A DNA stretch of 63,313 nucleotides, filler included. It is 5 parts of 5 records of this genome, joined end to end, with 100 filler letters (N's around TTAATTAATTAA, not from the genome) between each part and the next. Parts side by side here need not be neighbours in the genome. Positions count along the whole stretch, not along the records: positions 31,340 to 63,313 come from SRR20825010_3622; 4 more parts are not named here. The stretch is one strand, 5' to 3'. Under the pieces are notes generated by a model, which ran no database searches, was not told the origin of the DNA, and was given only the letters and a program-made list of their open reading frames with translations. The number at the start of each line of letters is the position of its first letter. Positions within the stretch are counted from its first letter, which is position 1. Position numbers and translations under genes: made by a program. Of this stretch, positions 26,342-63,265 are shown in pieces.

Positions 26342-26392
26342 GTCATTCAAGAACAGAACACCCAAGGGCCGAATCGACTGGCCCGATCGGGA

Positions 26393-27763: not shown

Positions 27764-27780
27764 TTCGTTTTTCCTTGATT

Positions 27781-27801
27781 AATTATTGTTATGCGATAAT
27801 T
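27781..27801. promoter_or_regulatory. Probable operator in the divergent promoter
   Basis: AATTATTG-TTATG-CGATAATT near-perfect inverted repeat in the only AT-rich gap, next to an XRE regulator operon. Confidence 0.5.
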
Positions 27802-27836
27802 TATGGCCCTCATAGTTTATTTTTTGGGAGACTGCA

Positions 27837-40020: not shown

Positions 40021-40024
40021 GCCA

Positions 40025-41329: not shown

Positions 41330-41406
41330 TCTGAACAGTTTCCTTTTTCGAAACCCTCTGGGGGTTATCGGTTCTTTTTGTAACGGTTTTCCGGCTCCGG
41401 ACTTCC

Positions 41407-42420: not shown

Positions 42421-43213
42421 CCGTCACTCCTGTCCCCGATGAGTCCTGGCCAGGGTTTGGGTTTGGATTCTGATCCTGATCCTGTTGTTGATCATCGTCC
42501 TGATCGTCTGCGGCATCGTTGACGCTATTCACCACACCCTGGGCAACGTCGTTGTCAAAATCAGGAAGCGTGAAGGTTCTTACCAGCTCTCCAAAACGTT
42601 CATGCTCAATGGTGACCTCGATACCCAGCGGTAAGGGAATGTCGGGGCGCGTACCTGGTGTCATATTGGCCATACTCTCTTCATCAGGCCATTCATCCCG
42701 CCAGTTTCGCTGATCATCGAGAAAACGAACCGTGAACTCAGTGACGTTCGAGAGGAGAAGAAGGTCCTGGCTGTTGTCTTCCTGCCCCCTGTCGACGGTT
42801 ACCCAGTACCGCCGGCGCAATTCATCCCCGGTGTATTCCCAGCCCACCCGCTGCAGACTGCTGCGGCGAGTGCCCAGTGGGTTGCGCCAGCCCTGGCGGG
42901 TGAGAATCAATGAAAACTCTTCTTCACGGCTGGTCAGAGCAGGACGGAAATCGCCGTAAATGTCACGGGCGGACCGGTTCACCACCTGGGTAATGTCCCG
43001 CTCCAGCAAGAGCATGGTGCGTTGAATATTATCAAACTGTTCCGCGACTTCGTTGACCCGGTCCCTGGACGAGACCACATTGCCCAACACCTGCCATACC
43101 CCTAGGCCGATAACAGCGGTGATGGTAACCGCGATCAGCACTTCCATCAGGGTAAAGCCAGCTTGGGCGGAGGGGCGCGACCTGTGTTGAGCAATGATCA
43201 TGGGGGCCGACAT
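42413..43213 (-). CDS. gspJ: Type II secretion minor pseudopilin J
   Basis: G-FTLMEVL, LERDITQ and GWRNP. Confidence 0.92.
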   Translation of the reverse strand: MSAPMIIAQHRSRPSAQAGFTLMEVLIAVTITAVIGLGVWQVLGNVVSSRDRVNEVAEQFDNIQRTMLLLERDITQVVNRSARDIYGDFRPALTSREEEFSLILTRQGWRNPLGTRRSSLQRVGWEYTGDELRRRYWVTVDRGQEDNSQDLLLLSNVTEFTVRFLDDQRNWRDEWPDEESMANMTPGTRPDIPLPLGIEVTIEHERFGELVRTFTLPDFDNDVAQGVVNSVNDAADDQDDDQQQDQDQNPNPNPGQDSSGTGVTGG

Positions 43214-43587
43214 CAGTTCTCACCAATAAACGCAGACAGCGTGTGGATCGGGGCGGGCTCAGGTCTGTTGCCGCGATACTGAGCCACGGTGACCTCAACA
43301 CGGAGAATGGACGGGTCTTCGGTGGCAAGGACAGCAGTGGTTACCTGCCATTGATAGGAGCCGTATTCGATGTCTTCCGAGTTCTCTGAAATAGAGGGCA
43401 GGTTTTCCTGAAGCCGGATTTCGTTGATGCGATTGTCCGCCACCCAGCCAGCCAGTGTTTTGTCCCGAATCCGCTCATAGCTGGAAATATACTGACTACC
43501 CACCTCAGCGGCTGCGGTGGCAATCAGGCCGAAAACCAGCAGAGCCACCAGGACCTCAATCAGTGTGAAACCGCGCTGGCCCTTCAT
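43213..43587 (-). CDS. gspI: Type II secretion minor pseudopilin I
   Basis: G-FTLIEVLVAL and AGWVADN; ATGA overlap with gspH. Confidence 0.92.
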   Translation of the reverse strand: MKGQRGFTLIEVLVALLVFGLIATAAAEVGSQYISSYERIRDKTLAGWVADNRINEIRLQENLPSISENSEDIEYGSYQWQVTTAVLATEDPSILRVEVTVAQYRGNRPEPAPIHTLSAFIGEN

Positions 43588-44117
43588 TCTTCCTCGACCT
43601 CCTCGCTTCCGGGATGGCGCCATTCCAAGGGAGAAACGCCATCAGACGCAATGGTATGCATCCGGGAATCGTCGCGGCCAACAAGGAACTCAATCTCAAA
43701 GGGCGTGGTTTCACCGCTGGAGAAAAACACCACATCCGGCCTCAGTTCATCTTCGTCAGACGCCAGGCGTGGGGTATCGCTTTCGATGTATTCAGTCACC
43801 GTGATCCATTCCGGAAAACTCCGTGTCCGGAACATCCGCTCGGCTGGCTGTTTCCATTCGCCACTCAACTCTTCCCAGGCGACGAAACGATAGCTGTCTT
43901 CCTCGAGGATTAGGCCCAGCTCAGTATTGTTCAGTATCGCCTGCTCCGAGGCGGTCTGCATCAGCAGGTAGAGCTCGCGTACTTCATTTTCCATCTCGCG
44001 ATCACGCGAGCTACCACCCATCGACATAACCGCAAGCGCCGCGAGCAGCCCAACCACCACCAGGACAACGAGTATTTCGATCAGTGTGAAGCCCGACTGT
44101 CGCGTCCTAGAGAGCAC
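43584..44117 (-). CDS. gspH: Type II secretion minor pseudopilin H
   Basis: G-FTLIEILVV and FSSGETTPF. Confidence 0.9.
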   Translation of the reverse strand: MLSRTRQSGFTLIEILVVLVVVGLLAALAVMSMGGSSRDREMENEVRELYLLMQTASEQAILNNTELGLILEEDSYRFVAWEELSGEWKQPAERMFRTRSFPEWITVTEYIESDTPRLASDEDELRPDVVFFSSGETTPFEIEFLVGRDDSRMHTIASDGVSPLEWRHPGSEEVEEE

Positions 44118-44119
44118 TA

Positions 44120-44572
44120 TCAGTCCCTGACCTTCCATACGCTGATATCGGCGTTATCACCGTCACCGCCCTCTCGGCCATCGGCACCGTACGAGTAGAG
44201 ATCATAAGGGCCTTCCGTGCCTGGGTTTACATACTGGTATGGCGCACCCCAGGGATCTTCGGGAACGCTGTTCAGGTACCCTTCCGGATTCCAGTTCCGA
44301 GGCTCGGGGCTGCCACTGGGCTTGGACACCAGTGCCTCAAGGCCCTGCTGGGTTGACGGGTAATGGCTGTTATCAAGGCGGTAGAGGTCCAACGCGTTAG
44401 CGATGTTGCTCATCTGGGTTTCGGCGACGGTCACGCGGGCCTGGTCACTTCGCCCCATGATGTTGGGAGCCACAATGGCTACCAGCAAGCCCAGAATAAC
44501 CATGACCACCATGATTTCGATCAGGGTAAAACCCCGTTGTGCCATTTGATGTTTCATTGTTTCGCTCTTCAT
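44120..44572 (-). CDS. gspG: Type II secretion major pseudopilin G
   Basis: G-FTLIEIMVV, YRLDN..YPSTQQGL, DPWG and GADG. Confidence 0.95.
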   Translation of the reverse strand: MKSETMKHQMAQRGFTLIEIMVVMVILGLLVAIVAPNIMGRSDQARVTVAETQMSNIANALDLYRLDNSHYPSTQQGLEALVSKPSGSPEPRNWNPEGYLNSVPEDPWGAPYQYVNPGTEGPYDLYSYGADGREGGDGDNADISVWKVRD

Positions 44573-44621
44573 CTGTCCCTATCTCTGGGTTTGGAAATGG
44601 GGTTGGCCTGCCGGTCCTGGC

Positions 44622-45833
44622 CTAACCAACCAGGTTGCTCATATTCAGGATCGGAAGCATGATTGCCAGCACGATAATCAACACAACCACGCCCATCAGC
44701 AGCAGCATCATCGGCTCGAACAGGCCCACGATGGCGGCAATCTTGGATTGCAGGGTGTTCTCCTGCATCGTCGCAGTCCGCTCCAGCATGCTGTCCAGCT
44801 CGCCGCTGGCTTCACCGCTGGCGATCATGTGCAGCATCATCGGTGGGAAGTACCCCGTCTGGTCCAGCGAGCGATGAAGGGAACCGCCTTCACTCACCTT
44901 TCTTGCTGCATCCCGCAGCTCCTGACGCAGGTGGTCATTTGAGAGCACCTCACCGGCAATACGCATGGCTTCCACCAACGGTACACCGCTAGTGGTCAGA
45001 ATGCTCAGTGTACTGGCATAGCGTGCGGTGTTGACACCGCGAACCATGCCTGAAAACAGCGGCATGTTCAGCAGGCTTTTATGGAAGCGGAGCCGGAACG
45101 AGGGTTTCTTCAATGACCACCGGAAAACAACCAGTGCCATAATGATCAGTATCAGCAGATAGATACCGTAGTTGCCCAGAAAATCAGAGACTGCCAGCAT
45201 GGCGGCCGTCAGCGCCGGAAGCTCCTGCCCCTGCTTTACAAACACCTCGATGATGTCCGGCACAACATAGGTCAACAGGAACACCACAATGGCAATGGCC
45301 ACAACGCTGAGAATGATTGGGTAAATGGCCGCCAACTGGATTTTCTGACGGGCCTCCTGCCGGGCCTCGGTATAGTCCGCCAGCCGGTTGAGCACCAAAT
45401 CCAGGTGCCCGGCGTGTTCACCCGCAGCCACGGTGGAGCGATAGAGCCGTGGAAATGCCCGTGGGAATTCACCCAGGCTGTCCGCCAGGCTGTACCCCTC
45501 CATGACCTTGGCGCGTATGGCAATCAGCATGCTGCGAATACGAGGCTTGGAAGACTGCTGGGCGGCCGCCGAAAGCGCCTGTTCAATGGGGATGCCGGAC
45601 TGGATAAGCGTCGCCAACTGGCGGGTCACCAGAGCCAGGTCCGCCGTTGCCAGGCTGCCCCGGCTGCTCAGTGGGTTGCTCCGCGCCTGTTTCTCCGAGG
45701 CCGGCTCCACCGCCAGGGGTGTCAGGCCCCGTTCCCGTAATTGCTGGCGAACCGCCCTTGGTGCATCGGCCTCGACAACGCCCTGTTTCTGTTTGCCGCG
45801 ACTGTCGAGTGCCTTGTAATCGAATGCTGGCAT
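44622..45833 (-). CDS. gspF: Type II secretion inner membrane platform protein F
   Basis: TRQLATL, AGEHAGHL, YP motif, SGEASGEL and FEP. Confidence 0.95.
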   Translation of the reverse strand: MPAFDYKALDSRGKQKQGVVEADAPRAVRQQLRERGLTPLAVEPASEKQARSNPLSSRGSLATADLALVTRQLATLIQSGIPIEQALSAAAQQSSKPRIRSMLIAIRAKVMEGYSLADSLGEFPRAFPRLYRSTVAAGEHAGHLDLVLNRLADYTEARQEARQKIQLAAIYPIILSVVAIAIVVFLLTYVVPDIIEVFVKQGQELPALTAAMLAVSDFLGNYGIYLLILIIMALVVFRWSLKKPSFRLRFHKSLLNMPLFSGMVRGVNTARYASTLSILTTSGVPLVEAMRIAGEVLSNDHLRQELRDAARKVSEGGSLHRSLDQTGYFPPMMLHMIASGEASGELDSMLERTATMQENTLQSKIAAIVGLFEPMMLLLMGVVVLIIVLAIMLPILNMSNLVG

Positions 45834-45837
45834 GGAG

Positions 45838-47346
45838 TTACCTGCTCCGGTGGGTCACGCGAAGGACCTCTTCAACCGTGGTCACCCCATCCAGGATTTT
45901 CTGGACGCCATCGGCATGGATGCTCGGGCCATGAAGTCTGGCTTCGTGTTCGAGATCCAGCTCCCCTGCCCGCTTATGGATCAATGAGCTGATCTCCTCG
46001 TTGACCTCAACGACTTCGTAGATACCAATACGGCCCCGATACCCCAACTGGTTGCAGTGTTCGCAGCCCTTGGCGCGATGAATCGTCGGCGGATTGGCCG
46101 GGTCCTGCTGCAGGAATTCGCAATGCTCTTCGCTCGGTGTGTAGGGTTCACAACAGTCCTTGCAGAGCACGCGCACCAATCGCTGGGCCACGATGCCCAC
46201 CAGACTGGAAGAAATCAGGAACGGCTCAATGCCCATGTCCATCAAGCGGGTAATCGCACCCACGGCGGTGTTGGTGTGGAGAGTCGACAACACCAGGTGC
46301 CCGGTCAAACTGGCCTGAACAGCGATTTCCGCCGTTTCCAGGTCACGGATTTCACCGATCATGACCACATCCGGGTCCTGACGCAGAATGGCCCGGAGCC
46401 CACGGGCGAAGGTCATATCCACCTTGGTGTTGACCTGGGTCTGGCCGATACCAGGCAGGTTGTACTCGATCGGGTCCTCAACGGTCAGTATGTTCCGGCT
46501 GCGATCATTGATTTCCTGCAGCGACGCATACAATGTTGTGGATTTACCGGAACCGGTGGGACCGGTTACCAGCAGGATGCCATAGGGCCGATAGATCAGC
46601 CGGCGCAGTATTTTAAGATCGCCGCCCGCCATACCAAGGGATTCCAGGCGAATGCTCCCGGCCTGTTTGTCCAAAAGACGCAATACCACCCGTTCACCGC
46701 TGGATGACGGCATGGTGGACACACGAATGTCGACTTCACGTCCGGCAACCCGCAGGGCGATACGACCATCCTGTGGCACCCGTTTCTCCGCGATGTCCAG
46801 CTTGGCCATAACCTTGATCCGCGACACCAGCAAGGGCGCCAGCGCTCGCTTGGGCTGTACCACTTCCCGCAGAACACCATCCACCCGGAAGCGAACTACA
46901 AGTCGTGTTTCGTAGGTTTCAATATGAACATCAGAGGCGCTGGTTTTGACCGCCTCGGTAAGAATGGCGTTGATAAGCCGAATGATCGGGGCGTCGTCTT
47001 CCTGCTCCAGCAGATCTTCGGTTTCGGGCACCGAATCCGCCAGCGACGCCAGGTCCATATCATCGCCAATACCTTCCACCATCTGCATGGCTTCGGCGGA
47101 ATCATTCTGGTAGGCGGCGTTCAGCGCGGCGTCGAACCGGGCCGGATCAATGGGAGAAAACCTTGCACGCCCCCCGCTGATGCGGTTGGCTTCCGCCAAC
47201 GCTGAGTGACCCGCCCCGGGTCGTACCAGGATTACAGGGTCGCCATCGTCGTCACGGGTCAGAATCACACCGTTGCGTTTGGCGAACGTGAAAGGTAGAC
47301 GGCCCAGCGGAGCATCCTGCGGCTGAAGTTCTGTGTCTGTGTCCAC
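45838..47346 (-). CDS. gspE: Type II secretion ATPase E
   Basis: GPTGSGKST, VEDPIE, LRQDPDVVMIGEIRD and CxxC/CxxC. Confidence 0.96.
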   Translation of the reverse strand: MDTDTELQPQDAPLGRLPFTFAKRNGVILTRDDDGDPVILVRPGAGHSALAEANRISGGRARFSPIDPARFDAALNAAYQNDSAEAMQMVEGIGDDMDLASLADSVPETEDLLEQEDDAPIIRLINAILTEAVKTSASDVHIETYETRLVVRFRVDGVLREVVQPKRALAPLLVSRIKVMAKLDIAEKRVPQDGRIALRVAGREVDIRVSTMPSSSGERVVLRLLDKQAGSIRLESLGMAGGDLKILRRLIYRPYGILLVTGPTGSGKSTTLYASLQEINDRSRNILTVEDPIEYNLPGIGQTQVNTKVDMTFARGLRAILRQDPDVVMIGEIRDLETAEIAVQASLTGHLVLSTLHTNTAVGAITRLMDMGIEPFLISSSLVGIVAQRLVRVLCKDCCEPYTPSEEHCEFLQQDPANPPTIHRAKGCEHCNQLGYRGRIGIYEVVEVNEEISSLIHKRAGELDLEHEARLHGPSIHADGVQKILDGVTTVEEVLRVTHRSR

Positions 47347-54736: not shown

Positions 54737-55350
54737 AAAACCGGTTCCTACCCTGCAGTCATAAAGCGATCTCTACCATGGCACTTTTGGCGTCCCTGGT
54801 GATGCTCGGTGGGTGCTTTGGCGACGATGAAAACTGGAATGGCAAAGACATCAGCGGCCTGATGCCGGAACTTGCCTTCGAGCTGACTGGCACCTCCGGC
54901 GACACGGTGACGGCCGAGCAAACCGACGGCAATATCCGGCTGCTTTTCTTCGGCTTCACCTCCTGCCCTGATATCTGCCCCGCCACACTCCAGAAGTTGT
55001 CCAGAGCGGTGAAAGATTTACCGGAAGCGTTGCGGACGGACACGCAGATTGTCTTTGTCAGCGTGGACCCGCAACGGGACACCCCAGAACGCATCGACAG
55101 CTACGTAAGCTTTTTCAGCGACCGGGCCATCGGCCTGACCGGCGAGGAACCGGCGCTCAGGGAACTCAGTAAGCGTTACCGCACCACCTTTGGTTACGAC
55201 GAGCCAGATGCGGAAGGCAACTACAACGTCTCGCACAGCGGTGCCGTGTATGTGTTCGATCGCGAAGGCAAGGCTCGCCTGTTGATCCGTCCAGAGCTGA
55301 GTGTGGAGGATATCCGTACGGATTTGGTGGCGTTGGCTGAGGAAAGCTAA
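54733..55350 (+). CDS. SCO1/SenC copper chaperone lipoprotein
   Basis: Lipobox LGGC, FTSCPDIC, VDPQRD and SHS. Confidence 0.92.
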   Translation: MKNRFLPCSHKAISTMALLASLVMLGGCFGDDENWNGKDISGLMPELAFELTGTSGDTVTAEQTDGNIRLLFFGFTSCPDICPATLQKLSRAVKDLPEALRTDTQIVFVSVDPQRDTPERIDSYVSFFSDRAIGLTGEEPALRELSKRYRTTFGYDEPDAEGNYNVSHSGAVYVFDREGKARLLIRPELSVEDIRTDLVALAEES

Positions 55351-55362
55351 CGCAACACCAGA

Positions 55363-56586
55363 TCACGAGACTATGCCGCGCTCCCTTAGGCTCTCTATTT
55401 CGCCAGAAGAGAGGCCAACAATAGTCTCAAGGACTTGTTTTGACTGTTCCCCCAACAGCGGAGGCGCCGTCCTGTAACTTACCGGTGTCAGCTTCAGCCT
55501 GATCGGATTGCCAACCGTCGGGACATCGCCCAGCGATGGATGTTGAACAGACTGTTTCATTCCCCGCGCAAGAACCTGTGGATCCTCAAATACCTGATCC
55601 AGGGTGTTAACCGGCCCACAGGGCACCCCTGAACGCTCCAGAATCTGCACCCATTCCTGGGTTGACCGCATCACCGTGGCCTGCCGCAGCCTGGGAATCA
55701 ATTCCTTTCGATTCGCCACGCGAGCCCGATTTGTCGCAAAACGCTCATCGCTCGCCCACTCCGGATGCCCGAGCACATCGCACAAGCGGGAGAACTGCTC
55801 ATCGTTACCGACCGTTAGCACCATGTTGCCGTCTGCGGTAGGGAAATCCTGATAAGGGACGATATTGGGATGGGCATTACCCATCCGCCCTGGCGCCTTG
55901 CCCGTAGTCAGGTAATTCATGGCCTGATTCGCCAGACAGGCTACCTGCACATCCAGCAGCGCCGCCTCCACATACTGCCCCTCTCCCGTACGGTCACGGT
56001 GACTGAGCGCAGCGAGCACACCAATGGTGGCATACAGCCCGGTCATGATGTCTGTCAGTGCTACACCGACCTTCATTGGCCCGGCGCCGGGCTCGCCGTC
56101 CGGTTGCCCGGTGATGCTCATAAGCCCGCCCATGGCCTGGATCAGGAAATCATATCCGGGCCGATTCGCGTAAGGGCCATCCTGGCCAAATCCGGTGATC
56201 GAGCAGTAGATGAGTTTGGGGTTGATACGTTTCAGGCTGTCGTAATCCAGGCCATAACGTTTGAGGCCCCCGACCTTGAAGTTTTCAAGGATGACGTCCG
56301 ACTCTGCGACCAGTTTTCGGATCAGTTCCTGCCCTTCGGGATGGGCGATATCGACCGCAAGGGACTGCTTGTTTCGATTGGCGGTCAGGAAGTAGGCAGA
56401 GAGATCTGCATTACCATCAGCCCCCTGCAGATATGGTGGCCCCCAGGAGCGGGTGTCGTCCCCGGATTTTGGGCGCTCAATTTTGATAACCTCTGCGCCG
56501 AGATCCCCAAGGATCTGCCCTGCCCAGGGACCAGCCAGCACTCTGGAGAGATCCAGGACACGCAAGTGAGATAGGGCACCAGTCAT
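55363..56586 (-). CDS. CaiB/BaiF class III CoA transferase
   Basis: LDLSRVLAGP, GDDTR, NRNK, ENF and GYD. Confidence 0.93.
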   Translation of the reverse strand: MTGALSHLRVLDLSRVLAGPWAGQILGDLGAEVIKIERPKSGDDTRSWGPPYLQGADGNADLSAYFLTANRNKQSLAVDIAHPEGQELIRKLVAESDVILENFKVGGLKRYGLDYDSLKRINPKLIYCSITGFGQDGPYANRPGYDFLIQAMGGLMSITGQPDGEPGAGPMKVGVALTDIMTGLYATIGVLAALSHRDRTGEGQYVEAALLDVQVACLANQAMNYLTTGKAPGRMGNAHPNIVPYQDFPTADGNMVLTVGNDEQFSRLCDVLGHPEWASDERFATNRARVANRKELIPRLRQATVMRSTQEWVQILERSGVPCGPVNTLDQVFEDPQVLARGMKQSVQHPSLGDVPTVGNPIRLKLTPVSYRTAPPLLGEQSKQVLETIVGLSSGEIESLRERGIVS

Positions 56587-56617
56587 TTAATTCTCCTTTA
56601 CTCAATCAATTTAGCTC

Positions 56618-57244
56618 CTATCCCCCCTCATACTCCCGGACCAGTGCCTCCAGAAAATAGAGACCAGCGGAGCTCAAAAAGCAGCGATCAGCTCCGGCGC
56701 GAAACAGCAGATTGCGTTTATCCAGATAATCCAGGGCTTCCGGCACCCCTTTTTCAAAGCGTGCCGCCCTGAGAATCTCCTGATACTCCTCATCGCCCGC
56801 CAACGCCGCCAGGTCCTGCTCATTCAATCCGGCATCGGGCCGGCCAAGGTATTCGAGGTCTCGACCGCTGCGCGCGAAATAACGCCCGATCAGCAGCAAG
56901 ATCACCTGCACCCGGAAGGCGTTCTCATCGTGCTCTTCGTTCTCTTCGTCACTGCTTTCCTTGAGAAAGAAAAACGCGCCGCGTTCGTTAAACACCAGCT
57001 CGCTGCCCAAGTGCTCGTAGAATGTCCGGAAATGGGACAGGTGGTTGTACAGCAAGTTGTAGAGCGGATTCGCCCGCAGCTCGGAGCGGTTGCTGTCCCA
57101 CACATCCCGCACAATCACCCGGCCGGCCTGAAATTCCCGGTAGATCGCGGCGCTGTGGGCCGGCAGGATCTGCTCGAAGCTGCTCGAACTTTGGGACTGG
57201 TCCGGGGATTCGGTGGTGTCTATCGCGTCAGAGAATTTAGGCAT
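56618..57244 (-). CDS. mksE: MksE/JetB-like KITE subunit
   Basis: About 208 aa with tandem winged-helix-like character (FYEHLGSELVFN..FFFL; LDYLDKRNLLF); 8-bp overlap with the upstream gene; assignment rests on operon context. Confidence 0.72.
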   Translation of the reverse strand: MPKFSDAIDTTESPDQSQSSSSFEQILPAHSAAIYREFQAGRVIVRDVWDSNRSELRANPLYNLLYNHLSHFRTFYEHLGSELVFNERGAFFFLKESSDEENEEHDENAFRVQVILLLIGRYFARSGRDLEYLGRPDAGLNEQDLAALAGDEEYQEILRAARFEKGVPEALDYLDKRNLLFRAGADRCFLSSAGLYFLEALVREYEGG

Positions 57245-58637
57245 GGTGTTGCTCCAGGCGGCGCTTTCGGTAGACAAACTGTTCGCTGTCGGATGACTGG
57301 TCCAGGATTCGGAAACGGTTGGTGGTCACCACTTGCAGTCCCTCCGGTGGCGAATTGACCAGCCGGTTCAGGGCTGCCAATAAGTCCGGAAAGCGATAAC
57401 CGGGGATAAAACCGTCCAGGCGGCCGTGCAGCTCCCGCACAAGGTCCGTGGTGGGGCGCAGTTCGAGGGTTTCCAGCCATTGATACAGCTGGTTGATACG
57501 CTGAACATCAATCCGGGTATGGCGGCCGCTGCCGTCCACGGCTGCCAGAACCGGTGCCTCGGCTTTGCGACGAAGATCGTTCAGGCGCAAGTCCAGCTCG
57601 CTGAACAACAACTGGTAGTAGCTGGACGATTCACCGAAAGCGTAATGCTTCGGGCGCTGCTGGGCCCGCAGGCCAACAAGGAAACCGGTGCTGCGGGCAA
57701 AATCCCCGCCTTCCAGCCATTTCCGTTTCAGGCTGAGGGTCTCGGTTTCGCCCTTGAGTTCCCGCAGTTTGCCGTAGAAATGCTCCATGGCGTTGTACTG
57801 AACCATGCCCTGGCGGGTCTTGCGCAGGAAGTGCTCCACTTCCTGGGCCACCGCCTGAATGGGTTTGTACAAAGCGTTGAGGCTGATGGAGGAGCGGAAC
57901 AACTGGTCCGCCAGGCTCTGGTCGTCGTGGGTTTCCAGCAGCCGGACGATGGCTTCCAGGGTCTCGAAAAGGTTACTGCCGTCGGGCAGTCGCGTATCCG
58001 GATTCAGGAACACCAGGGTCGGTTTGATGTGGCGCTCGTACAGGGTCACGATCTGCTCGAACAGGTTCTGGCGGAACTCCAGGTATTTCTCCGGCGCCCG
58101 GCTAGCGTCGCCGGACAGGTCCGCAAGTTGCGCACTGATCGTCTGCATGCGCAGCACATTCTGGCGCAACAATCCGATGAGCTGACTGACCCGCTCGTTC
58201 AGATCGTCCCGCAGTTCGGTGTAGTCCGGGTCCGCATCGCTGAAGCTGCTGGTTTCCAGGCGATTACGCACATCGCGCAAGGTCACCAGATGTCCTCTGA
58301 GCCTGGCATCGGTCAGTTCCTGATACAGCGAGGCGTTGCAGGCCCGCATCAAGTTGATCAGGGCATCCTGGAACACCAGTCGCCGCTCACCCTCGGCCTT
58401 GATGATGTCAATCACCAGGCCGCTGCGGAACAGGTTGTCAGTGTTCAGCGCCAGCCGCACCCGATCCCGGTCGGCCTTGCCGAGGGTTTGGGTGTAGTCC
58501 ATCACCTCGGCCACCAGGTCGCTCTCGCGAATATACCGGGCCTCGTTCCGATCCATCCGCTCAATCATCCGGAACAGAATCTTCGGGTGCTCGAACAACA
58601 GCCGGGTGGTGTCCAAGGTGCTGAAGCGCTTACTCAT
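57237..58637 (-). CDS. mksF: MksF/JetA-like kleisin subunit
   Basis: About 466 aa, helical, with N-terminal wHTH-like region (NLFRSGLVID); coupled between the SMC and KITE genes. Assigned by size and context. Confidence 0.65.
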   Translation of the reverse strand: MSKRFSTLDTTRLLFEHPKILFRMIERMDRNEARYIRESDLVAEVMDYTQTLGKADRDRVRLALNTDNLFRSGLVIDIIKAEGERRLVFQDALINLMRACNASLYQELTDARLRGHLVTLRDVRNRLETSSFSDADPDYTELRDDLNERVSQLIGLLRQNVLRMQTISAQLADLSGDASRAPEKYLEFRQNLFEQIVTLYERHIKPTLVFLNPDTRLPDGSNLFETLEAIVRLLETHDDQSLADQLFRSSISLNALYKPIQAVAQEVEHFLRKTRQGMVQYNAMEHFYGKLRELKGETETLSLKRKWLEGGDFARSTGFLVGLRAQQRPKHYAFGESSSYYQLLFSELDLRLNDLRRKAEAPVLAAVDGSGRHTRIDVQRINQLYQWLETLELRPTTDLVRELHGRLDGFIPGYRFPDLLAALNRLVNSPPEGLQVVTTNRFRILDQSSDSEQFVYRKRRLEQHHA

Positions 58638-61569
58638 CCGCCGGCTCCAGCAGGCTGTTCTGGGTCTGGTCACCCCAGTGGCTGAGCGATTCGCCGTTGG
58701 TGAACCCCTCGGCCCCGCCCCAGAACACCAGGGTGCGCTGCGGGCTGTAAGGCCTTGCCGTGCGCATCTGCCCTACTTCCAGGTGCCGGCCAATCAGATA
58801 AATCACTTCCGCACTGGCACTGTGGGTGGCGGCTGAGAACAGATTGAAGCCCTGGTTGCGCAACCGTTCCAGCAGCGAAGGCATCTGGCTAATGTCCACA
58901 CTGGCCAGCTCGTCCAGCACCATGGGGAACGACAGCTGCACGCCGGGATACAGCACCCGTTTCAGCAGCCGGTACACCAGTTCCAGATTGATCAGCGCTG
59001 TGGTGGAGGTAGACTGGCCCTTCTTGTCCAGGTTCGCGGCGTTCTCCTTGCGGGTGCGGTAGGAAATGCCGGTGATCACCCGGTCCATGGTCAGCCGCTT
59101 GCTGCCGCCCTCCCCGAAAAAGTCCGCCACAAAAACCCGCAAACGATCATAGAACGCATCGGACTGCAGCTGGTTGCCATAAGGGTCGATGTTATTGGCT
59201 TCTTCCACCAGATTGCGGAATTTCGGATCGGTGTGAATATCCACCCGGATTTCCACCAGATCGTTGATGCGAACGCCGTCCAGTTCCCGGTTAAGCTGTG
59301 CCTCGAAACGGGCAATGTGCTCGTGGTTGGATTTTAGGGCCTGGCGGTAGCTGGCCACGGTTTCGTTGTGAATACCGACCTGCTGTTCGAGCACATTCCA
59401 GCGCTCGGCCATGCCGGCAAACAGGTCCGACAGGCTCTTGAAGGTCTCACGGATAACCGATGACGCCGGGCCGTCTTTCTGCAACTCACCTTCGGCATCG
59501 TCATGGATGCCCAGATACACGAACTGACGAAGGTGATCGAGGATGTTGCGGCGGCGCTCTTCCAGGTCGTCCAGTTGGGTTTGCAGATCGTCAAACGCCG
59601 CAACGGACACCTTTTCCATGTCCAGCGGCTGCTCCGCTTCCACGGTCTTCAGATGCGGGAAACGATGCTCCACGGTGCCCACGCTGCGGCTGAGGCCAGC
59701 CAGTTCCCGTTCCCGCTCTTCGATACGTTCCTTCTCGGCCCTGGCTTTGGCGGCCTTCTGCTGCACCGCATCCTGCTTTTCCTGCTCCAGCCGCACCTGT
59801 TCTTCCAGCTTGGCCAACTGTTCTTCCGCCGCCTGCTTTTCCTCGGTGGCGTCCCGCAGGGTGGTCGCGGCCGCCGGGTAACGGCTCAGGGTATCCAGGT
59901 CTTTCTCGATGGAACGGATTTCTTTCTCCGTGCGCTCGATCAGCCGGGGCCGGTCATGTTCCTGGTTGGCGGTGTCCGCCAATTCCGAGCGCTCCTTTTC
60001 AAGGCCGTGTAGCTCGCCCTCAATATGCTGGCGTTGCTCGGTGAAGTTGGTTTGGCGAGCCGGCTGGGCCGGGTATTCGGCGTCGAACCAGTCGAAGCCC
60101 TTGTCATTGGGCACAAACAGCCGGGCAAAGGCTTCGATGGCGGCCTTGCTGTCGGCATCCAGATCCTGCCCGGGGCTGGCCATCACCAGACGGGCATCCA
60201 CCGCCCGAAGTGGCGCGGCGGTGGCTTCATCCAACTGGTTCTGTAGTTGCCATTGCTGCTTGCTCTCGCGCTCCTTCAGGGCATCCAGCTTCCGGGTCAG
60301 ATCCTGCTTCTGCCGCTGTAACTGCTCCAGCCGGATTTCTGCCTGGGCGGCGCTCTTCAAGGCGGCCAAGTGCCCTTTTTTGCTCTCGAGTTCCTCCTTC
60401 TGGATGTCCTCGATTTCCTGCAGGGTCATCTCGCCGTACTGGGACACCAGAAGGTCACCGTCTTTCTGGCTTTGCTCGGCCTGCTTGATGCGACGGTCGG
60501 CGGAACGGATCTCGCCTTTGAGGCCACTCTCCTCCTGCTCCAGTTTTTTCAGGGCCTGCAGCACATGGCGCAGGGTGTCATTCTGTTCATTGAACATGGC
60601 CACGGCAGCTGTGCGCTTCGCGGCAATGTCCTGCAAGGCATTCGTCACGCCATCCCGGAAAGCGGCGAAGTCATGCTGGCTGCTGAGCAGGGTCTGGTAG
60701 GCCTGGTAATCCCGGTACAGTTTCTCGAACCGCGAGCGCTCTTTTTCGATCCGGTTCAGTTGGGTCTGCTGCTGTTTCAACTGATCGTGGCGATTGAGGA
60801 ACTCGTCGATGTTGAAATCAAAGGCATCATCGGCAAACTTCTTGTCCGCCTCTATGATGCTGGCCACCGCATTGGCCATGGCCTGGTCATCGGCCTTCAT
60901 CTCGAACAACAGCAGGATCAGCGTACGCAACGACTGCACCCGCCGCTCGTCGGACTCACCCAGCGGCAGCACGGAATAGCGCACGGCATCCGCGTTCATC
61001 AGCTCGCTGCTGTAGAGCATAGATTTCAATTTAGCCGGGTCATTCACCAGCCGGGTCTCTTTGGAGAGCTTCTTCAGGGTTTCCGACAACCGGCTGAACG
61101 ACAGCTCCGGCACCGCCTTGCCAATGCCATCCTCACCCTCACCGTTCCAGAACAGAGACCGCAATTGATCATAGCTGACCGGCACAAAGGCGCGACCGTA
61201 GCTAAGCTGGCTGGCGCTGTCCCGGTACAGAATCTGGCAATGCACCCCGGCCGGGTTCTCAGCCTCCATGATCAGGAAACTGAAATGGCTGGGGAAATAA
61301 TGCTGGTAGCTTTCTTCATTGCTGTAAAAGCTGCCGGCACTGGCGTTGCGGAAAGCAAACTTCTTGCGACTGTTCTTGAAGTTGTTTTCTGGCAACAGAA
61401 ACAGGCGCAGGGAGTTCAGCAGACTGGACTTGCCCAGATTGCCCGGGCCCAGAATCAGCCCGTGGTTGTCCACCGGAATTTCCACGTAACAGAAGCCCGC
61501 CGAGTCCACCAACACCAATCGGCGGATGCCAAAATTGAAATTGCCCGGGCTCCCCTGGGAGTCACTCAT
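58630..61569 (-). CDS. mksB: SMC-like ATPase (MksB/JetC type)
   Basis: Walker A GPGNLGKSS, long coiled coils, degenerate signature GQSTST, Walker B MVLDELASVD and H-loop AATH. Confidence 0.88.
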   Translation of the reverse strand: MSDSQGSPGNFNFGIRRLVLVDSAGFCYVEIPVDNHGLILGPGNLGKSSLLNSLRLFLLPENNFKNSRKKFAFRNASAGSFYSNEESYQHYFPSHFSFLIMEAENPAGVHCQILYRDSASQLSYGRAFVPVSYDQLRSLFWNGEGEDGIGKAVPELSFSRLSETLKKLSKETRLVNDPAKLKSMLYSSELMNADAVRYSVLPLGESDERRVQSLRTLILLLFEMKADDQAMANAVASIIEADKKFADDAFDFNIDEFLNRHDQLKQQQTQLNRIEKERSRFEKLYRDYQAYQTLLSSQHDFAAFRDGVTNALQDIAAKRTAAVAMFNEQNDTLRHVLQALKKLEQEESGLKGEIRSADRRIKQAEQSQKDGDLLVSQYGEMTLQEIEDIQKEELESKKGHLAALKSAAQAEIRLEQLQRQKQDLTRKLDALKERESKQQWQLQNQLDEATAAPLRAVDARLVMASPGQDLDADSKAAIEAFARLFVPNDKGFDWFDAEYPAQPARQTNFTEQRQHIEGELHGLEKERSELADTANQEHDRPRLIERTEKEIRSIEKDLDTLSRYPAAATTLRDATEEKQAAEEQLAKLEEQVRLEQEKQDAVQQKAAKARAEKERIEERERELAGLSRSVGTVEHRFPHLKTVEAEQPLDMEKVSVAAFDDLQTQLDDLEERRRNILDHLRQFVYLGIHDDAEGELQKDGPASSVIRETFKSLSDLFAGMAERWNVLEQQVGIHNETVASYRQALKSNHEHIARFEAQLNRELDGVRINDLVEIRVDIHTDPKFRNLVEEANNIDPYGNQLQSDAFYDRLRVFVADFFGEGGSKRLTMDRVITGISYRTRKENAANLDKKGQSTSTTALINLELVYRLLKRVLYPGVQLSFPMVLDELASVDISQMPSLLERLRNQGFNLFSAATHSASAEVIYLIGRHLEVGQMRTARPYSPQRTLVFWGGAEGFTNGESLSHWGDQTQNSLLEPADE

Positions 61570-62344
61570 CCAGAATCATCTCCTGTTCCATAAATTTGCC
61601 GGTGGCCCGGAACGCCTCTGCCAGCGAGACGAACCCAAGCCCCTCCGCCAGCGCGATGGCTTTTGTAAATCGCTCGGTGCTGTCCGGTGTCTTGCAGAAA
61701 CGGCCCTGCCAGGGCTGCCAGTCGCTGGGCTGCACAAACCTGGCTTTGTTACCCAAAGCGGCAGCCATCCTCGAGAACATCTGCAGGCCACCCGCATCAT
61801 AATCGAATGCGCAGAATACGTCTTTGTAGCCGGTCAACCAATCAAGGATCGCGGCCCGGGTAATCCTGTTGCCGCCACCCAACACCACGTCACACTGAGG
61901 CAGCTCCAGACGCCTGCCCAGAGCATCACCGGCAAAGCTCAACATGTCTCGATATTGGTAGAAATTGCGTTCGTTCTCAACGATCAGAACAGAGCTTGCG
62001 CGGTGAAAACCGCTATCAACGGAATCGTTACCGACAACCACCACATCCGGCCGGCTGGAAGCCAAGGCATGGTGGTAAACGAGAAGGAAACTGACCTCGG
62101 TGCCATGGCGGTGAGAGTCGCCCTTTTTCGCGGCGTCTACTCTGCTTACTGGAGCCTCGGCAACGCGCTGTAGCTCCGCAAAAGCGGCTTCATCCAGGAC
62201 CGTGACCATCCAGCGATTGGCCTGGACTTTCTCCGTGGCAAACAGCTGTCTGTGGAGGCGGCGGAACTGTTCCGGAAGCTTCTTTAGAAAGGCTTCATAG
62301 TTGATTGGCTGGCCTTGTAGGATTTTCTCGAGGTAGTCGTTCAA
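61562..62344 (-). CDS. mksG: Toprim-domain nuclease-like protein (MksG/JetD type)
   Basis: Toprim Glu in VLIVENERNF and DxD in AFDYDAGG; GDSH motif; TTG start at 62344 after GGAG; overlaps the SMC start. Confidence 0.72.
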   Translation of the reverse strand: MNDYLEKILQGQPINYEAFLKKLPEQFRRLHRQLFATEKVQANRWMVTVLDEAAFAELQRVAEAPVSRVDAAKKGDSHRHGTEVSFLLVYHHALASSRPDVVVVGNDSVDSGFHRASSVLIVENERNFYQYRDMLSFAGDALGRRLELPQCDVVLGGGNRITRAAILDWLTGYKDVFCAFDYDAGGLQMFSRMAAALGNKARFVQPSDWQPWQGRFCKTPDSTERFTKAIALAEGLGFVSLAEAFRATGKFMEQEMILDE

Positions 62345-62446
62345 GATCGCTCCATGGGCTGGATCATGGTGTCTTTGTTTACAGGGTTGGCTTCGAGCAT
62401 GCAATAAGGCACGTTAACTGACTAGAATCCTAACGCGAGTACTGTG

Positions 62447-63265
62447 ATGAAGAAACTAGCCCTGATAACCGGTGCCAGCGCCGGCATTGGCCATGAGGCC
62501 TGCGCCCTCTTTGCCCGCAACGGCTATAGGGTTATCGCCCTGTCCCGACAGCCGAGTGGTGTTGAGTCCGCCGCTCTGGAGATGGCACTGGATCTTGAGT
62601 CCTTTGACCAGATTGAGGGTCTTGCGGGCGCGTTGGATAGCGAAATCGCAAGTGCCGAGCGGGTTATTCTGGTTAACAATTCCGGATACGGACAATTCGG
62701 GGCGCTGCGGGATCTGTCCGAATCCATGTGGCAAAAGCAGTTCAGCACCCACGTATTCGGCCCGATCAAGCTGGCTGCTGTTTGCCTGAGGCTCTGCGAA
62801 CAACACGGGATCCCCTTGCGGGTCATCGCAGTCAGCTCCGTTTTATCCATTGTGCCCCAGCAAATGAAAGGCGCCTACTGTGCCGCGAAGTCCGCTATGA
62901 ACGCGGCGCACGACAGTTTCTGGTTTGATGAACAGGGCAGCAAAAGCCTGGAAAGTGTCTCGCTGGTGCTTCCTGGGCCCGTGGCGACCCGGTTCAGAGA
63001 ACATGCCCTGGCCGCTTTGCAGCCCTTGCTTGGACGGGCAAGCGCGACGCACCAGGAAAAGTACAAAGCAATGGAAGCAGCGCTTGCGCCAGGCGCCAGA
63101 ATCAAGCCGTTTACAGCCAGTGCGTTGGATGTTGCCGAAAAGATTTACCAGGCTGCGGAAGTGGGACGTCCCAAGCCAAGGTATCTGGTTACGCCTCAGA
63201 CTTACATTGCTGCGTTTGTCACGCGGTTTATGCCGCACTCTGTCCAGCGGAGAATTCTGGGGTAG
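62447..63265 (+). CDS. SDR family oxidoreductase
   Basis: TGASAGIG, NNSGYG, YCAAK and PGPV. Confidence 0.9.
   Translation: MKKLALITGASAGIGHEACALFARNGYRVIALSRQPSGVESAALEMALDLESFDQIEGLAGALDSEIASAERVILVNNSGYGQFGALRDLSESMWQKQFSTHVFGPIKLAAVCLRLCEQHGIPLRVIAVSSVLSIVPQQMKGAYCAAKSAMNAAHDSFWFDEQGSKSLESVSLVLPGPVATRFREHALAALQPLLGRASATHQEKYKAMEAALAPGARIKPFTASALDVAEKIYQAAEVGRPKPRYLVTPQTYIAAFVTRFMPHSVQRRILG

What the first reader, a model, noticed from the sequence alone, without database searches (positions are those of the whole stretch)
56618..62344. Four-gene Wadjet/MksBEFG-like SMC system with permuted order Toprim-SMC-kleisin-KITE
Seen: four co-directional genes, each overlapping the next by exactly 8 bp (ATGAGTGA, ATGAGTAA, ATGCCTAA). 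They encode a Toprim protein (E and DxD motifs), a 979-aa SMC-like ATPase, a ~466-aa helical protein and a ~208-aa protein. Known: Wadjet (jetABCD/mksFEBG) and mukFEB place kleisin and KITE before the SMC, and Wadjet cleaves circular plasmid DNA through its Toprim subunit. Inference: this is a distinct D-C-A-B subtype of an anti-plasmid SMC defence system. The tight coupling indicates the order is established rather than a recent scramble. The kleisin and KITE identities come from context only.
Basis: partly seen in the sequence, partly recalled or inferred. Interest (0 to 1): 0.8.

Follow-up and report, generated by a model that had tools for sequence, protein, structure and literature searches.

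The report
Reordered Wadjet-like SMC operon in Marinobacter
This is a very divergent relative of the Wadjet/MksBEFG plasmid-defence SMC machines with its four genes in an unusual order, carried by many Marinobacter species, several of which have lost the nuclease gene but kept the DNA-motor genes.

Summary
Four minus-strand genes (61562-62344, 58630-61569, 57237-58637, 56618-57244) overlap by 8 bp each.

All four subunit identities now have evidence:
- g1 is a 260-aa Topo VI-A/MksG/JetD-like Toprim protein.
- g2 is a MukB/Mks-like split ABC ATPase.
- g3 has a MukF/JetA kleisin fold.
- g4 is a Pfam MksE KITE.

The order G-B-F-E is kept in 80 of 80 related loci. It is also kept in relatives of about 30% identity on Photobacterium and Methylophaga plasmids, where it lies beside CRISPR, toxin-antitoxin, WYL and PIN genes. 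A published catalogue of Wadjet-group operons lists FEBG, GFEB, FEB and BEF but not this order or this family.

The anti-plasmid function is untested. In Marinobacter the operon lies among housekeeping genes. The nuclease gene was lost at least 7 times while g2-g4 stayed intact. A nuclease-independent, condensin-like role is therefore a serious rival.

Verdict: new variant of a known kind, of moderate interest.

The parts
61562..62344 (-). g1: 260-aa MksG/JetD-like protein. [quoted passage not shown] The start codon is TTG.
   Evidence: Pfam JetD_C PF09983 scores 25.7 bits against a cut-off of 22, over residues 134-277. The AF2 model has pLDDT 89.4. Foldseek PDB hits: Topo VI-A 9o0g_A at 2.2e-4, 'Nuclease from C. 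glutamicum' 8b7f_A at 5.4e-4, JetD 7til_A at 7.7e-3. Some sources name homologues 'Wadjet anti-phage system protein JetD domain-containing protein' or 'DUF2220 family protein'.
61970..61978 (-). g1 Toprim acidic motif E123-N124-E125.
   Evidence: Invariant in 16 of 16 aligned sequences. Coordinates were read.
61796..61804 (-). g1 Toprim DxD motif D181-Y182-D183.
   Evidence: Invariant in 16 of 16 aligned sequences. Coordinates were read.
58630..61569 (-). g2: 979-aa SMC-like split ABC ATPase of the MukB/MksB/JetC kind.
   Evidence: The heads (1-300 and 735-979) are conserved. The middle is less conserved and rich in charged residues, with a P/G-rich centre at 451-510. The ATPase motifs are invariant. 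The nearest Atlas clusters carry MukB PF04310, DUF3584 PF12128 and the Mks ATPase family PF28007. hhalign gives a weak match to the MukB N-terminus, E 0.004. No structure was predicted.
61423..61449 (-). g2 Walker A, GPGNLGKSS (residues 41-49).
   Evidence: G41, G43, N44, L45, G46, K47, S48 and S49 are invariant in 17 of 17 sequences.
58909..59016 (-). g2 C-terminal head motifs: signature-like QSTSTT (852-857) through Walker B PMVLDE (882-887).
   Evidence: Q852-T857, D886 and E887 are invariant in 17 of 17 sequences.
57237..58637 (-). g3: 466-aa kleisin of the MukF/JetA kind. It has an N-terminal winged helix (1-100), a helical bundle (107-300), a disordered linker (about 301-340) and a C-terminal winged helix (374-463).
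   Evidence: The AF2 model has pLDDT 77. The first 13 listed Foldseek PDB hits are all MukBEF/MukEF/JetABC entries, the best being 9gm7_C at E 7.6e-5. Atlas neighbours are MukF (0.96) and JetA PF18982 (0.95). There is no Pfam, PADLOC or NCBIfam family match.
56618..57244 (-). g4: 208-aa KITE subunit of the MksE/JetB kind.
   Evidence: Pfam MksE PF21980 at E 1.4e-23, 84.5 bits against a cut-off of 27. PADLOC JetB1 at 3.2e-5. hhalign to E. coli MukE gives E 5e-4, probability 31%, over a shared FFYLR motif.
61562..61569 (-). 8-bp overlap ATGAGTGA between g1 and g2.
   Evidence: Read. An 8-bp overlap is present in 45 of 56 loci.
58630..58637 (-). 8-bp overlap ATGAGTAA between g2 and g3.
   Evidence: Read. 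An 8-bp overlap is present in 68 of 72 loci.
57237..57244 (-). 8-bp overlap ATGCCTAA between g3 and g4.
   Evidence: Read. An 8-bp overlap is present in 61 of 75 loci.

Best explanation
The operon encodes a four-subunit SMC complex of the Wadjet/Mks group, from a deeply divergent lineage with the gene order G-B-F-E (jetD-C-A-B).

**Inferred mechanism, by analogy with JetABCD and MukBEF**
- g2 dimerises through its central segment.
- A g4 dimer sits on the middle of g3.
- ATP turnover drives DNA loop extrusion.
- g1, a cut-down Topo VI-A/MksG/JetD-type Toprim enzyme, is the nuclease that cuts DNA once a small circular molecule has been fully extruded.
- The conserved 8-bp overlaps probably couple the translation of the four subunits.

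**History**
The ancestral setting is mobile DNA defence, as still seen on the Photobacterium and Methylophaga plasmids. The Marinobacter lineage carries the operon as a long-resident chromosomal gene set. There the motor core g2-g3-g4 is under stronger constraint than the nuclease.

**Shown here:** the subunit identities at fold or family level, the conserved motifs, the conserved order and overlaps, the distribution, and the nuclease losses.
**Inferred:** complex assembly, loop extrusion, and plasmid cleavage.
For: **Subunit identities**
- g4 matches Pfam MksE at E 1.4e-23. The g4 orthologues on both plasmids also match it, at 4e-16 and 6e-10.
- g1 scores above the JetD_C gathering cut-off. 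Its model, pLDDT 89.4, matches Topo VI-A, C. glutamicum nuclease 8b7f, JetD 7til and Spo11 8urq. ENE and DYD are invariant.
- The g3 model shows the layout winged helix, helical bundle, linker, winged helix. Its first 13 listed Foldseek PDB hits are all MukBEF, MukEF or JetABC entries. Atlas neighbours are MukF and JetA.
- g2 has a full invariant ABC motif set, a split-head layout, and MukB, DUF3584 and Mks-ATPase Atlas neighbours.

**Order and constraint**
- The order is conserved in 80 of 80 loci and in two plasmid relatives. There, profiles of A1-A4 hit the cognate ORFs at 6e-13, 1e-30, 6e-95 and 7e-22, E-values valid only within that small set, and tblastn gives 28-37% identity.
- The plasmid copies sit in defence-type surroundings: Cas3 and Csy1; or WYL, RelE/ParE, HigA, an integrase and a PIN-TPR-GreABC protein.
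- All four genes are under purifying selection. dN/dS against the window is 0.13-0.21 for g1 (4 of 6 comparisons; 2 had saturated dS), 0.05-0.14 for g2, 0.03-0.12 for g3 and 0.04-0.14 for g4.
Against: - There is no functional test of any kind.
- Sequence-level links to solved or curated Wadjet, Muk or Mks proteins are weak or absent.
  - Searches of PDB sequences with single proteins and with profiles gave nothing relevant.
  - PADLOC gives only weak JetD, JetC and JetB hits and none for g3.
  - NCBIfam condensinMksE scores 22 bits against a cut-off of 400.
  - hhalign of the g3 family against E. coli MukF found nothing.
- Foldseek support for g3 is modest. One hit has E <= 0.001, and TM-scores are 0.12-0.28. 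This is as expected for a flexible multi-domain model, but it is not strong.
- g2 was not modelled. No complex prediction could be run.
- g1 has 260 aa, against 365-368 resolved residues in JetD and MksG chains. Pfam gave no match to its N-terminal part. Whether g1 can be gated like JetD is therefore open.
- In Marinobacter the surroundings are housekeeping genes. g1 is missing or broken in 13 of 70 rows. This argues that defence is not the whole function there.
Confidence: 0.6

Rival explanations
1. In Marinobacter the complex is mainly a resident chromosome-organising condensin, like P. aeruginosa MksBEF or MukBEF. The Toprim subunit is a dispensable leftover or accessory, and plasmid restriction is not the selected function.
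For: - The operon is present in at least 69 species-level genomes, almost all Marinobacter.
- Its neighbours in the window are metabolic and housekeeping genes. None of the 17 ORFs scanned has a PADLOC hit.
- g1 is absent or broken in 13 of 70 rows. The tree needs 9 changes, at least 7 of them forced by well-supported branches, and all basal rows have g1.
- 9 of the 13 keep g1 remnants or a frameshifted g1 next to an intact g2.
- g2 and g3 have the lowest dN/dS.
- Marinobacter sp. F3R08 has a canonical FEBG Wadjet at 695224-702251 and this family's g2-g4 without g1 at about 886-903 kb of the same contig.
- Passages seen in PMC10586767 and PMC7617805 say that MksBEF and MukBEF probably arose from Wadjet by loss of the nuclease.
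Against: - g1 is intact in 57 of 70 rows, with invariant catalytic motifs and dN/dS of 0.13-0.21. It is therefore maintained by selection in most species.
- The immediate flanks differ widely between species. No flank ORF family is shared by more than 22 of 69 loci. This is unlike a fixed core locus.
- The plasmid relatives sit in defence-type surroundings.
- Whether Marinobacter also has Smc-ScpAB could not be checked with these tools.
Confidence: 0.3
2. It is an SMC-like defence or repair system of another kind, for example Lamassu-like or SbcC/Rad50-like with a Toprim effector. On this reading g3 and g4 are not a true kleisin-KITE pair.
For: - The best PADLOC hit of g2 is LmuB, E 5.7e-7.
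- NCBIfam gives weak Rad50, SMC and SbcC hits.
- g3 has no family-level sequence match.
Against: - The LmuB, Rad50 and SbcC matches cover only the coiled-coil middle of g2, residues about 476-760, and not the heads.
- g4 passes the Pfam MksE cut-off by a wide margin.
- The g3 fold hits are MukF and JetA only among the top ranks.
- No LmuA-like or LmuC-like or Mre11-like gene lies in the operon.
Confidence: 0.05

Closest known systems
Wadjet type I (JetABCD, also called MksFEBG or EptABCD)
   Same: [quoted passage not shown] Relatives lie in defence-type surroundings on plasmids.
   Different: - The gene order here is G-B-F-E. The catalogue of PMC7617805 lists FEBG (1218 word hits), GFEB (310), FEB (186) and BEF (2), counted over two copies of the table, and none for GBFE or BFE.
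- No JetA or JetC family-level sequence match was found.
- g1 has only 260 aa, and Pfam gave no match to its N-terminal part.
- g2 has 979 aa, against the 1111-aa MksB of C. glutamicum (passage seen in PMC10123090).
- In Marinobacter the operon is chromosomal and genus-wide.
MksBEF of Pseudomonas aeruginosa (a condensin without a nuclease)
   Same: Both are Muk-like SMC complexes in a gammaproteobacterium that is not expected to rely on them alone. The 13 Marinobacter rows without g1 are effectively B-F-E operons. g4 is in Pfam MksE. The Atlas neighbours of g2 carry the Mks ATPase family PF28007.
   Different: - The P. aeruginosa operon is mksFEB (passages seen in bioRxiv 10.1101/2020.05.18.101659).
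- g4 scores 22 bits against the NCBIfam condensinMksE cut-off of 400.
- Most members here still carry a Toprim gene.
MukBEF of E. coli
   Same: The g3 model's best PDB match is a chain of a MukBEF entry, and MukF(1-287) is also hit. Weak profile matches link g4 to MukE and the g2 N-terminus to MukB.
   Different: - No Pfam MukB, MukF or MukE match was found.
- hhalign of g3 against MukF found nothing.
- MukB has 1486 aa against 979 here.
- The Muk order is mukFEB, and Muk has no nuclease.
Topoisomerase VI subunit A / Spo11
   Same: The best fold matches of g1 have a winged-helix (CAP-like) domain plus Toprim. These are 9o0g_A at 2.2e-4, 1d3y, 2zbk, 2q2e, and Spo11 8urq_A at 2.7e-2.
   Different: - g1 is shorter.
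- It has no B-subunit partner gene.
- It sits in an SMC operon.
- Whether any tyrosine acts catalytically was not tested. Y16 is nearly invariant, and Y90, Y173 and Y182 are invariant.

Membership tests
Wadjet / JetABCD (MksBEFG) | SMC-like ABC ATPase (JetC/MksB) with a split head, a long coiled coil and a hinge. | tested here: inconclusive
   The ABC motifs are invariant. The split-head layout has a P/G-rich centre. Atlas neighbours are MukB, DUF3584 and Mks ATPase clusters. However, there is no Pfam DUF3584 or MukB hit. The PADLOC JetC hits (best 1.8e-6) cover only coiled-coil parts. No structure was predicted.
Wadjet / JetABCD (MksBEFG) | Kleisin JetA/MksF with N-terminal and C-terminal winged-helix domains. 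| tested here: met
   The criterion is met at fold level only. The first 13 listed Foldseek hits are MukBEF, MukEF or JetABC entries. Atlas gives MukF 0.96 and JetA 0.95. There is no JetA family sequence match.
Wadjet / JetABCD (MksBEFG) | KITE subunit JetB/MksE. | tested here: met
   Pfam MksE PF21980 at E 1.4e-23, 84.5 bits against a cut-off of 27. DUF4194 reaches only 16.6 bits against a cut-off of 32.7.
Wadjet / JetABCD (MksBEFG) | JetD/MksG nuclease with an N-terminal DUF3322/CAP part plus a C-terminal Toprim (DUF2220/JetD_C). | tested here: inconclusive
   The C-terminal part is met: JetD_C at 25.7 bits against a cut-off of 22, ENE and DYD invariant, and fold hits to MksG and JetD. For the N-terminal part, Pfam gave no match. 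g1 has 260 aa with a short winged-helix domain, against target lengths of 365-368 for JetD and MksG chains.
Wadjet / JetABCD (MksBEFG) | Operon order jetA-B-C-D (FEBG), or D first followed by A-B-C (GFEB). | tested here: not met
   The order here is D-C-A-B. The words GBFE and BFE do not occur in Data S1 of PMC7617805.
Wadjet / JetABCD (MksBEFG) | Restriction of circular plasmids that depends on the ATPase and the Toprim. | not testable with these tools
   This needs an experiment.
MksBEF condensin (P. aeruginosa type, NCBIfam equivalogs) | The score reaches the equivalog cut-off for the Mks subunits. | tested here: not met
   g4 scores 22.1 bits against a cut-off of 400 for NF040858. g2 and g3 match no Mks model.
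MukBEF | Pfam MukB, MukF and MukE domains, in the order mukFEB. | tested here: not met
   No such Pfam hits were found. hhalign gives nothing for MukF, E 5e-4 for MukE and E 0.004 for MukB, the last two at low probability.
Lamassu | LmuB together with an LmuA effector, with or without LmuC. | tested here: not met
   The PADLOC LmuB hit, E 5.7e-7, is confined to g2 residues 476-758. No LmuA or LmuC match was found for g1, g3 or g4.

The most novel reading that the evidence does not exclude
This family may be a natural series of intermediates in the conversion of a plasmid-defence SMC machine into a chromosomal condensin. It began as a mobile Wadjet-like system, still seen in defence-type neighbourhoods on plasmids. 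It settled in the Marinobacter chromosome, and its motor core acquired a nuclease-independent housekeeping role. The Toprim subunit then became expendable and was lost at least seven separate times. If so, closely related species with and without g1 offer matched pairs for asking what an SMC defence motor does on the host chromosome and how self-cleavage is avoided.
Probability: 0.3. Interest if true: 0.75.

Novelty: new variant of a known kind. Interest (0 to 1): 0.55.

Why it matters
- **Evolution of Muk and Mks.** Reviews propose that MukBEF and MksBEF descend from Wadjet through loss of the nuclease (passages seen in PMC10586767, and PMC7617805). Few lineages show that step in progress. 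This lineage has nuclease-bearing and nuclease-free members among close relatives.
- **Detection gap.** The family shows that the Wadjet group is wider than current detection profiles. PADLOC models and a six-round profile survey did not pick it up. Estimates of how common these systems are, and of their gene-order rules, are therefore incomplete.
- **Minimal nuclease.** The 260-aa g1 may define the smallest Toprim nuclease module that an SMC motor can control.

Tried and rejected
**Sequence comparisons with known proteins that gave nothing useful**
- Searches of PDB sequences with each single protein and with family profiles A2, A3 and A4 gave no relevant match.
- hhalign of the g3 family against E. 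coli MukF gave nothing.
- None of the 26 distant g3 representatives scanned (of 126 found) has a Pfam family at its cut-off.

**Predicted complex of g3 with two copies of g4**
- No result exists, so nothing can be said about binding.

**Idea: the conserved N-terminal F-[DE]-x-[IV]-L-P motif of g4 is the docking site for g1**
- This was suggested by the JetB IFDR motif described in PMC10586767.
- The motif is retained in 13 of 13 loci without g1, so the comparison gives no support for the idea.

**Signals and collections that gave nothing**
- The promoter and terminator scan of 55200-62700 found nothing above the shuffled expectation.
- The window holds no Rfam family and no tRNA.
- The phage collection has no relative of g2.
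- The viral fold library gave only generic Toprim primases for g1.

**Not available**
- Petrushenko 2011 (PMC3179180) and Rybenkov 2014 (PMC4119464) are not held.
- The 2020 ABC-ATPase classification paper was not found in the library.
- Doron 2018 was not read.
- Only the best 80 of 113 related genome loci were kept, so the more distant chromosomal relatives were not seen.
Full report
**1. Observation**

The region holds four co-directional genes on the minus strand.

| Gene | Coordinates | Length |
|---|---|---|
| g1 | 61562-62344 | 260 aa |
| g2 | 58630-61569 | 979 aa |
| g3 | 57237-58637 | 466 aa |
| g4 | 56618-57244 | 208 aa |

- The g1 start is a TTG at 62344. A longer frame opens at 62404. 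However, relatives start at the position of 62344, with ATG in the more distant ones, and most database homologues are 260 aa.
- The overlaps are conserved. By a heuristic choice of start codon, an 8-bp overlap occurs in 45 of 56 loci (g1/g2), 68 of 72 (g2/g3) and 61 of 75 (g3/g4).

**2. What the four proteins are**

*g4 (KITE)*
- It matches Pfam MksE PF21980 at E 1.4e-23, 84.5 bits against a cut-off of 27. It matches DUF4194 only weakly.
- PADLOC JetB1 scores 3.2e-5.
- NCBIfam condensinMksE scores 22 bits against a cut-off of 400.
- g4 is therefore a KITE of the MksE/JetB kind, but not the P. aeruginosa equivalog.

*g1 (Toprim)*
- It passes the Pfam JetD_C gathering score, 25.7 against 22, over residues 134-277.
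- In an alignment of 16 sequences at 46-88% identity, the motifs ENExNF (123-128), DYDxGGL (181-187) and FMEQE (251-255) are invariant.
- An AlphaFold2 model built from that alignment has mean pLDDT 89.4. It shows a small helix-plus-hairpin domain followed by an alpha/beta domain.
- Four Foldseek PDB hits have E <= 0.001: three Topo VI-A chains (9o0g_A 2.2e-4, 9o8p_A, 9o0g_C) and 'Nuclease from C. glutamicum' 8b7f_A (5.4e-4).
- Further hits are other Topo VI-A entries (1d3y, 2zbk, 2q2e), P. aeruginosa JetD 7til_A (7.7e-3) and Spo11 8urq_A (2.7e-2).
- The viral fold library gave only generic Toprim primases.
- g1 is thus a shortened MksG/JetD/Topo VI-A-like protein. Some public records already name homologues 'JetD domain-containing' or 'DUF2220 family'; others say hypothetical.

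*g3 (kleisin)*
- It has no Pfam, PADLOC or NCBIfam family and no PDB sequence match. All named homologues are 'hypothetical protein', apart from one JGI entry labelled 'predicted nuclease with TOPRIM domain'.
- A profile of 28 family members found only 126 representatives (E <= 1e-3) among 1.84 billion.
- Of 26 distant representatives scanned, none carries a Pfam family at its cut-off.
- The AlphaFold2 model (pLDDT 77, pTM 0.40) has four parts: an N-terminal winged helix (1-100), a helical bundle (107-300), a low-confidence linker (315-337), and a C-terminal three-helix plus hairpin domain (374-463).
- The first 13 listed Foldseek PDB hits are all from MukBEF or MukEF entries (9gm7_C 7.6e-5, 7nz2_C1, 9gmb, 9gm9, 3euh, 3rpu) or JetABC entries (8as8_E, 9qe0_E, 8q72_E, 8dk2_A). 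MukF(1-287) 1t98_A follows at rank 16.
- Only one of these hits has E <= 0.001, and TM-scores are low (0.12-0.28). The tool does not name the chains. The target lengths (287-498) fit MukF and JetA, not MukE and JetB.
- Independent language-model neighbours are MukF clusters (0.96) and a JetA cluster (0.95).
- I take g3 to be a kleisin of the MukF/JetA kind.

*g2 (SMC-like ATPase)*
- Across 17 of 17 sequences these motifs are invariant: Walker A (G41-S49), a signature-like QSTSTT (852-857), Walker B (D886-E887), D892 and H916.
- The two ends (1-300 and 735-979) are conserved. The middle is less conserved and rich in E, K, R, Q, L and A, with a P/G-rich centre at 451-510.
- The nearest Atlas clusters are 'chromosome segregation ATPase'. 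They carry MukB N-terminal PF04310 (41% of members), DUF3584 PF12128, or PF28007 (12-33% of members).
- hhalign against E. coli MukB aligns only the N-terminal Walker A region (E 0.004, probability 8%).
- The PADLOC and NCBIfam hits (LmuB, JetC, Rad50, SMC, SbcC) fall in the coiled-coil middle and say little.

**3. Relatives and gene order**

- A scan of one genome per species found 113 relatives of g3. The best 80 were kept. Almost all are Marinobacter; a few are titled Oleiphilaceae, Halomonadaceae, Ketobacteraceae, Aquisalimonadaceae or just Pseudomonadota.
- In all 80 loci, the genes present lie in the order g1-g2-g3-g4 on one strand.
- tblastn against 72,556 plasmids found two records.
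  - *Photobacterium damselae*, a 598-kb non-mobilizable plasmid. It has g1, g2, two inserted small genes, g3 and g4, next to Cas3 and Csy1. Identity to the window proteins is 28-37%.
  - *Methylophaga thalassica*, a 320-kb plasmid. It has g1-g2-g3-g4 in a row. The operon is flanked by a WYL protein, RelE/ParE and HigA genes, an integrase and a 1366-aa PIN-TPR-GreABC-type protein. Profiles of the four Marinobacter families each hit the cognate ORF.
- Further distant g3 relatives come from Nitrincola, Pontibacterium and Amphritea, all unnamed. Closer ones come from Pistricoccus, Allohahella and Corallincola.
- The phage collection has no relative of g2.
- The order is therefore an old, fixed property of a small family of marine Gammaproteobacteria.

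**4. Comparison with catalogued orders**

- Passages seen in PMC10123090 and bioRxiv 10.1101/2020.05.18.101659 give mksFEBG and mksFEB.
- Data S1 of PMC7617805 lists Wadjet-group operons found by six rounds of profile search (method passage).
- Over the csv and xlsx copies, its OperonStructure column holds these word counts: FEBG 1218, GFEB 310, FEB 186 and BEF 2. It holds none for GBFE, BFE, EFB or GBEF. Halved, that is about 609, 155, 93 and 1 operons.
- The only two Marinobacter rows are canonical FEBG operons.
- One of them, in Marinobacter sp. F3R08, lies at 695224-702251 of contig JAHKPI010000025.1. The same contig carries this family's g2-g4 in locus L019, at 885936-903327.
- Nitrincola, Methylophaga, Amphritea, Photobacterium damselae, Allohahella and Pistricoccus do not occur in the file.
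- The stored file may have been cut. I searched it and did not read it whole.
- Two literature searches for this arrangement found nothing.

**5. Setting in Marinobacter**

- The window's other ORFs are housekeeping or metabolic. They include a type II secretion cluster, guanylate kinase, YicC, DAHP synthase, an FGGY kinase, CtaG, SCO1, a family III CoA-transferase and an SDR.
- None of the 17 window ORFs scanned has a PADLOC hit. These are the 9 nearest neighbours plus 8 further ORFs without a Pfam family.
- No integrase or transposase domain was seen.
- The immediate flanks are not fixed across species.
  - The CoA-transferase gene next to g4 is adjacent in none of the 80 loci.
  - No flank ORF family within 4 kb is shared by more than 22 of 69 loci. 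That count includes some spurious antisense ORFs.

**6. Loss of the Toprim gene**

- Seventy rows (69 loci plus the window) have full-length g2 and at least 900 bases upstream. Eleven of the 80 loci were dropped as too short or with g2 incomplete: L003, L020, L021, L025, L037, L042, L048, L052, L062, L068 and L077.
- Of the 70 rows, 57 have a full g1 and 13 do not.
- On a quick maximum-likelihood tree of g2 plus g3, the label needs 9 changes, at least 7 of them forced by well-supported branches. All basal rows have g1, and so do both plasmid relatives. The changes are therefore losses.
- Nine of the 13 keep traces of g1. L075 has a frameshifted g1. L006, L010, L015, L040, L041, L043, L045 and L079 keep fragments abutting g2. 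Four have no trace: L019, L057, L059 and L067.
- Seven of the 13 were examined for what now lies upstream of g2. The genes there are unrelated: chemoreceptors, a cytochrome b561, LpxR and a metallo-beta-lactamase-fold protein.
- g2-g4 remain full-length in these loci.
- dN/dS against the window:

| Gene | dN/dS | Note |
|---|---|---|
| g1 | 0.13-0.21 | 4 of 6 pairs; 2 had saturated dS |
| g2 | 0.05-0.14 | |
| g3 | 0.03-0.12 | |
| g4 | 0.04-0.14 | |

**7. Interpretation**

- The identity of the system as a four-subunit complex of the Wadjet/Mks group is well supported.
- The mechanism is inferred from JetABCD and MukBEF: an SMC dimer bridged by a kleisin that carries a KITE dimer, ATP-driven loop extrusion, and Toprim cleavage of fully extruded small circles. 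It is not shown here.
- The plasmid relatives in defence-type neighbourhoods fit a defence origin.
- Several findings point to a nuclease-independent role of the core, as in MksBEF and MukBEF:
  - the wide presence across Marinobacter;
  - the housekeeping surroundings;
  - the coexistence with a canonical Wadjet;
  - the repeated loss of g1 with retention of a strongly constrained core.
- Even so, g1 is kept intact and constrained in 57 of 70 rows. I therefore rate the defence reading, with possibly an added chromosomal role, at 0.6. I rate a mainly condensin role in Marinobacter at 0.3.

**8. What stayed open**

- No complex prediction could be run; the calls are listed under Tried and rejected.
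- g2 was not modelled.
- The 33 more distant genome loci were not kept.
- Several key papers were not held.
- Whether Marinobacter carries Smc-ScpAB, and how many Marinobacter species lack the operon, could not be determined.

**9. Verdict**

- This is a new variant of a known kind.
- It is an uncatalogued, deeply divergent Wadjet-group lineage with the order Toprim-SMC-kleisin-KITE and a minimal JetD-like nuclease.
- Its pattern of nuclease loss makes it a useful system for studying the link between defence and condensin functions.
- Interest: 0.55.

Noticed in passing
L081:7216-7990 (Photobacterium damselae plasmid NZ_CP090497.1): Two small co-directional genes are inserted between the SMC and kleisin genes of the distant G-B-F-E operon. 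One is a 113-aa DUF5406 protein. The other has 147 aa and no family. Their role is unknown. They could be accessory subunits, regulators or an insertion.
   Followed up: partly
L082:5233-6060 and L082:11911-16011 (Methylophaga thalassica plasmid NZ_CP143310.1): A divergent WYL-domain gene lies directly upstream of the distant operon. A 1366-aa protein with HTH_upst_double_PIN and PIN-TPR-GreABC domains lies directly downstream. Toxin-antitoxin genes (RelE/ParE, HigA) and an integrase are nearby.
   Followed up: partly
window 56618-57244 (g4 N-terminus, residues 1-30): The N-terminal tail of g4 varies in length between species, by about 25 residues. It always ends in an F-[DE]-x-[IV]-L-P motif with F23 and P28 invariant. 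The motif is kept even where g1 is lost. Its partner is unknown.
   Followed up: partly
window 55363-56586: A family III CoA-transferase gene starts 32 bases after the g4 stop on the same strand, so it may be co-transcribed here. It is adjacent to the operon in none of the 80 related loci.
   Followed up: partly
window 25015-28382: Four ORFs of 437, 192, 199 and 181 aa have no Pfam or PADLOC family. They lie within a stretch of raised G+C, 0.59-0.66 over 22-30 kb, against about 0.55-0.58 over much of the rest of the window.
   Followed up: no
window 24306-24896: A 196-aa ORF matches only positions 207-290 of the 291-position GCS2 glutamate-cysteine ligase profile. It may be a truncated gene or a wrongly chosen start.
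   Followed up: no
window 39490-47346: A complete-looking type II secretion gene cluster (GspE, F, G, H, I, J, K, L, M) lies on the minus strand.
   Followed up: no
Atlas outputs; P0386: Pfam 38.1 family names appear swapped relative to the literature. PF28007 'MksF' sits on ATPase clusters of about 980 aa. PF28010 'MksB' sits on a 413-aa cluster resembling the kleisin. These families are not in the local Pfam copy, so g2 and g3 could not be scored against them.
   Followed up: no
L019 and contig JAHKPI010000025.1 (Marinobacter sp. F3R08): One genome carries both a canonical FEBG Wadjet (695224-702251, from Data S1 of PMC7617805) and this family's g2-g4 without g1 (within 885936-903327) on the same contig.
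   Followed up: partly
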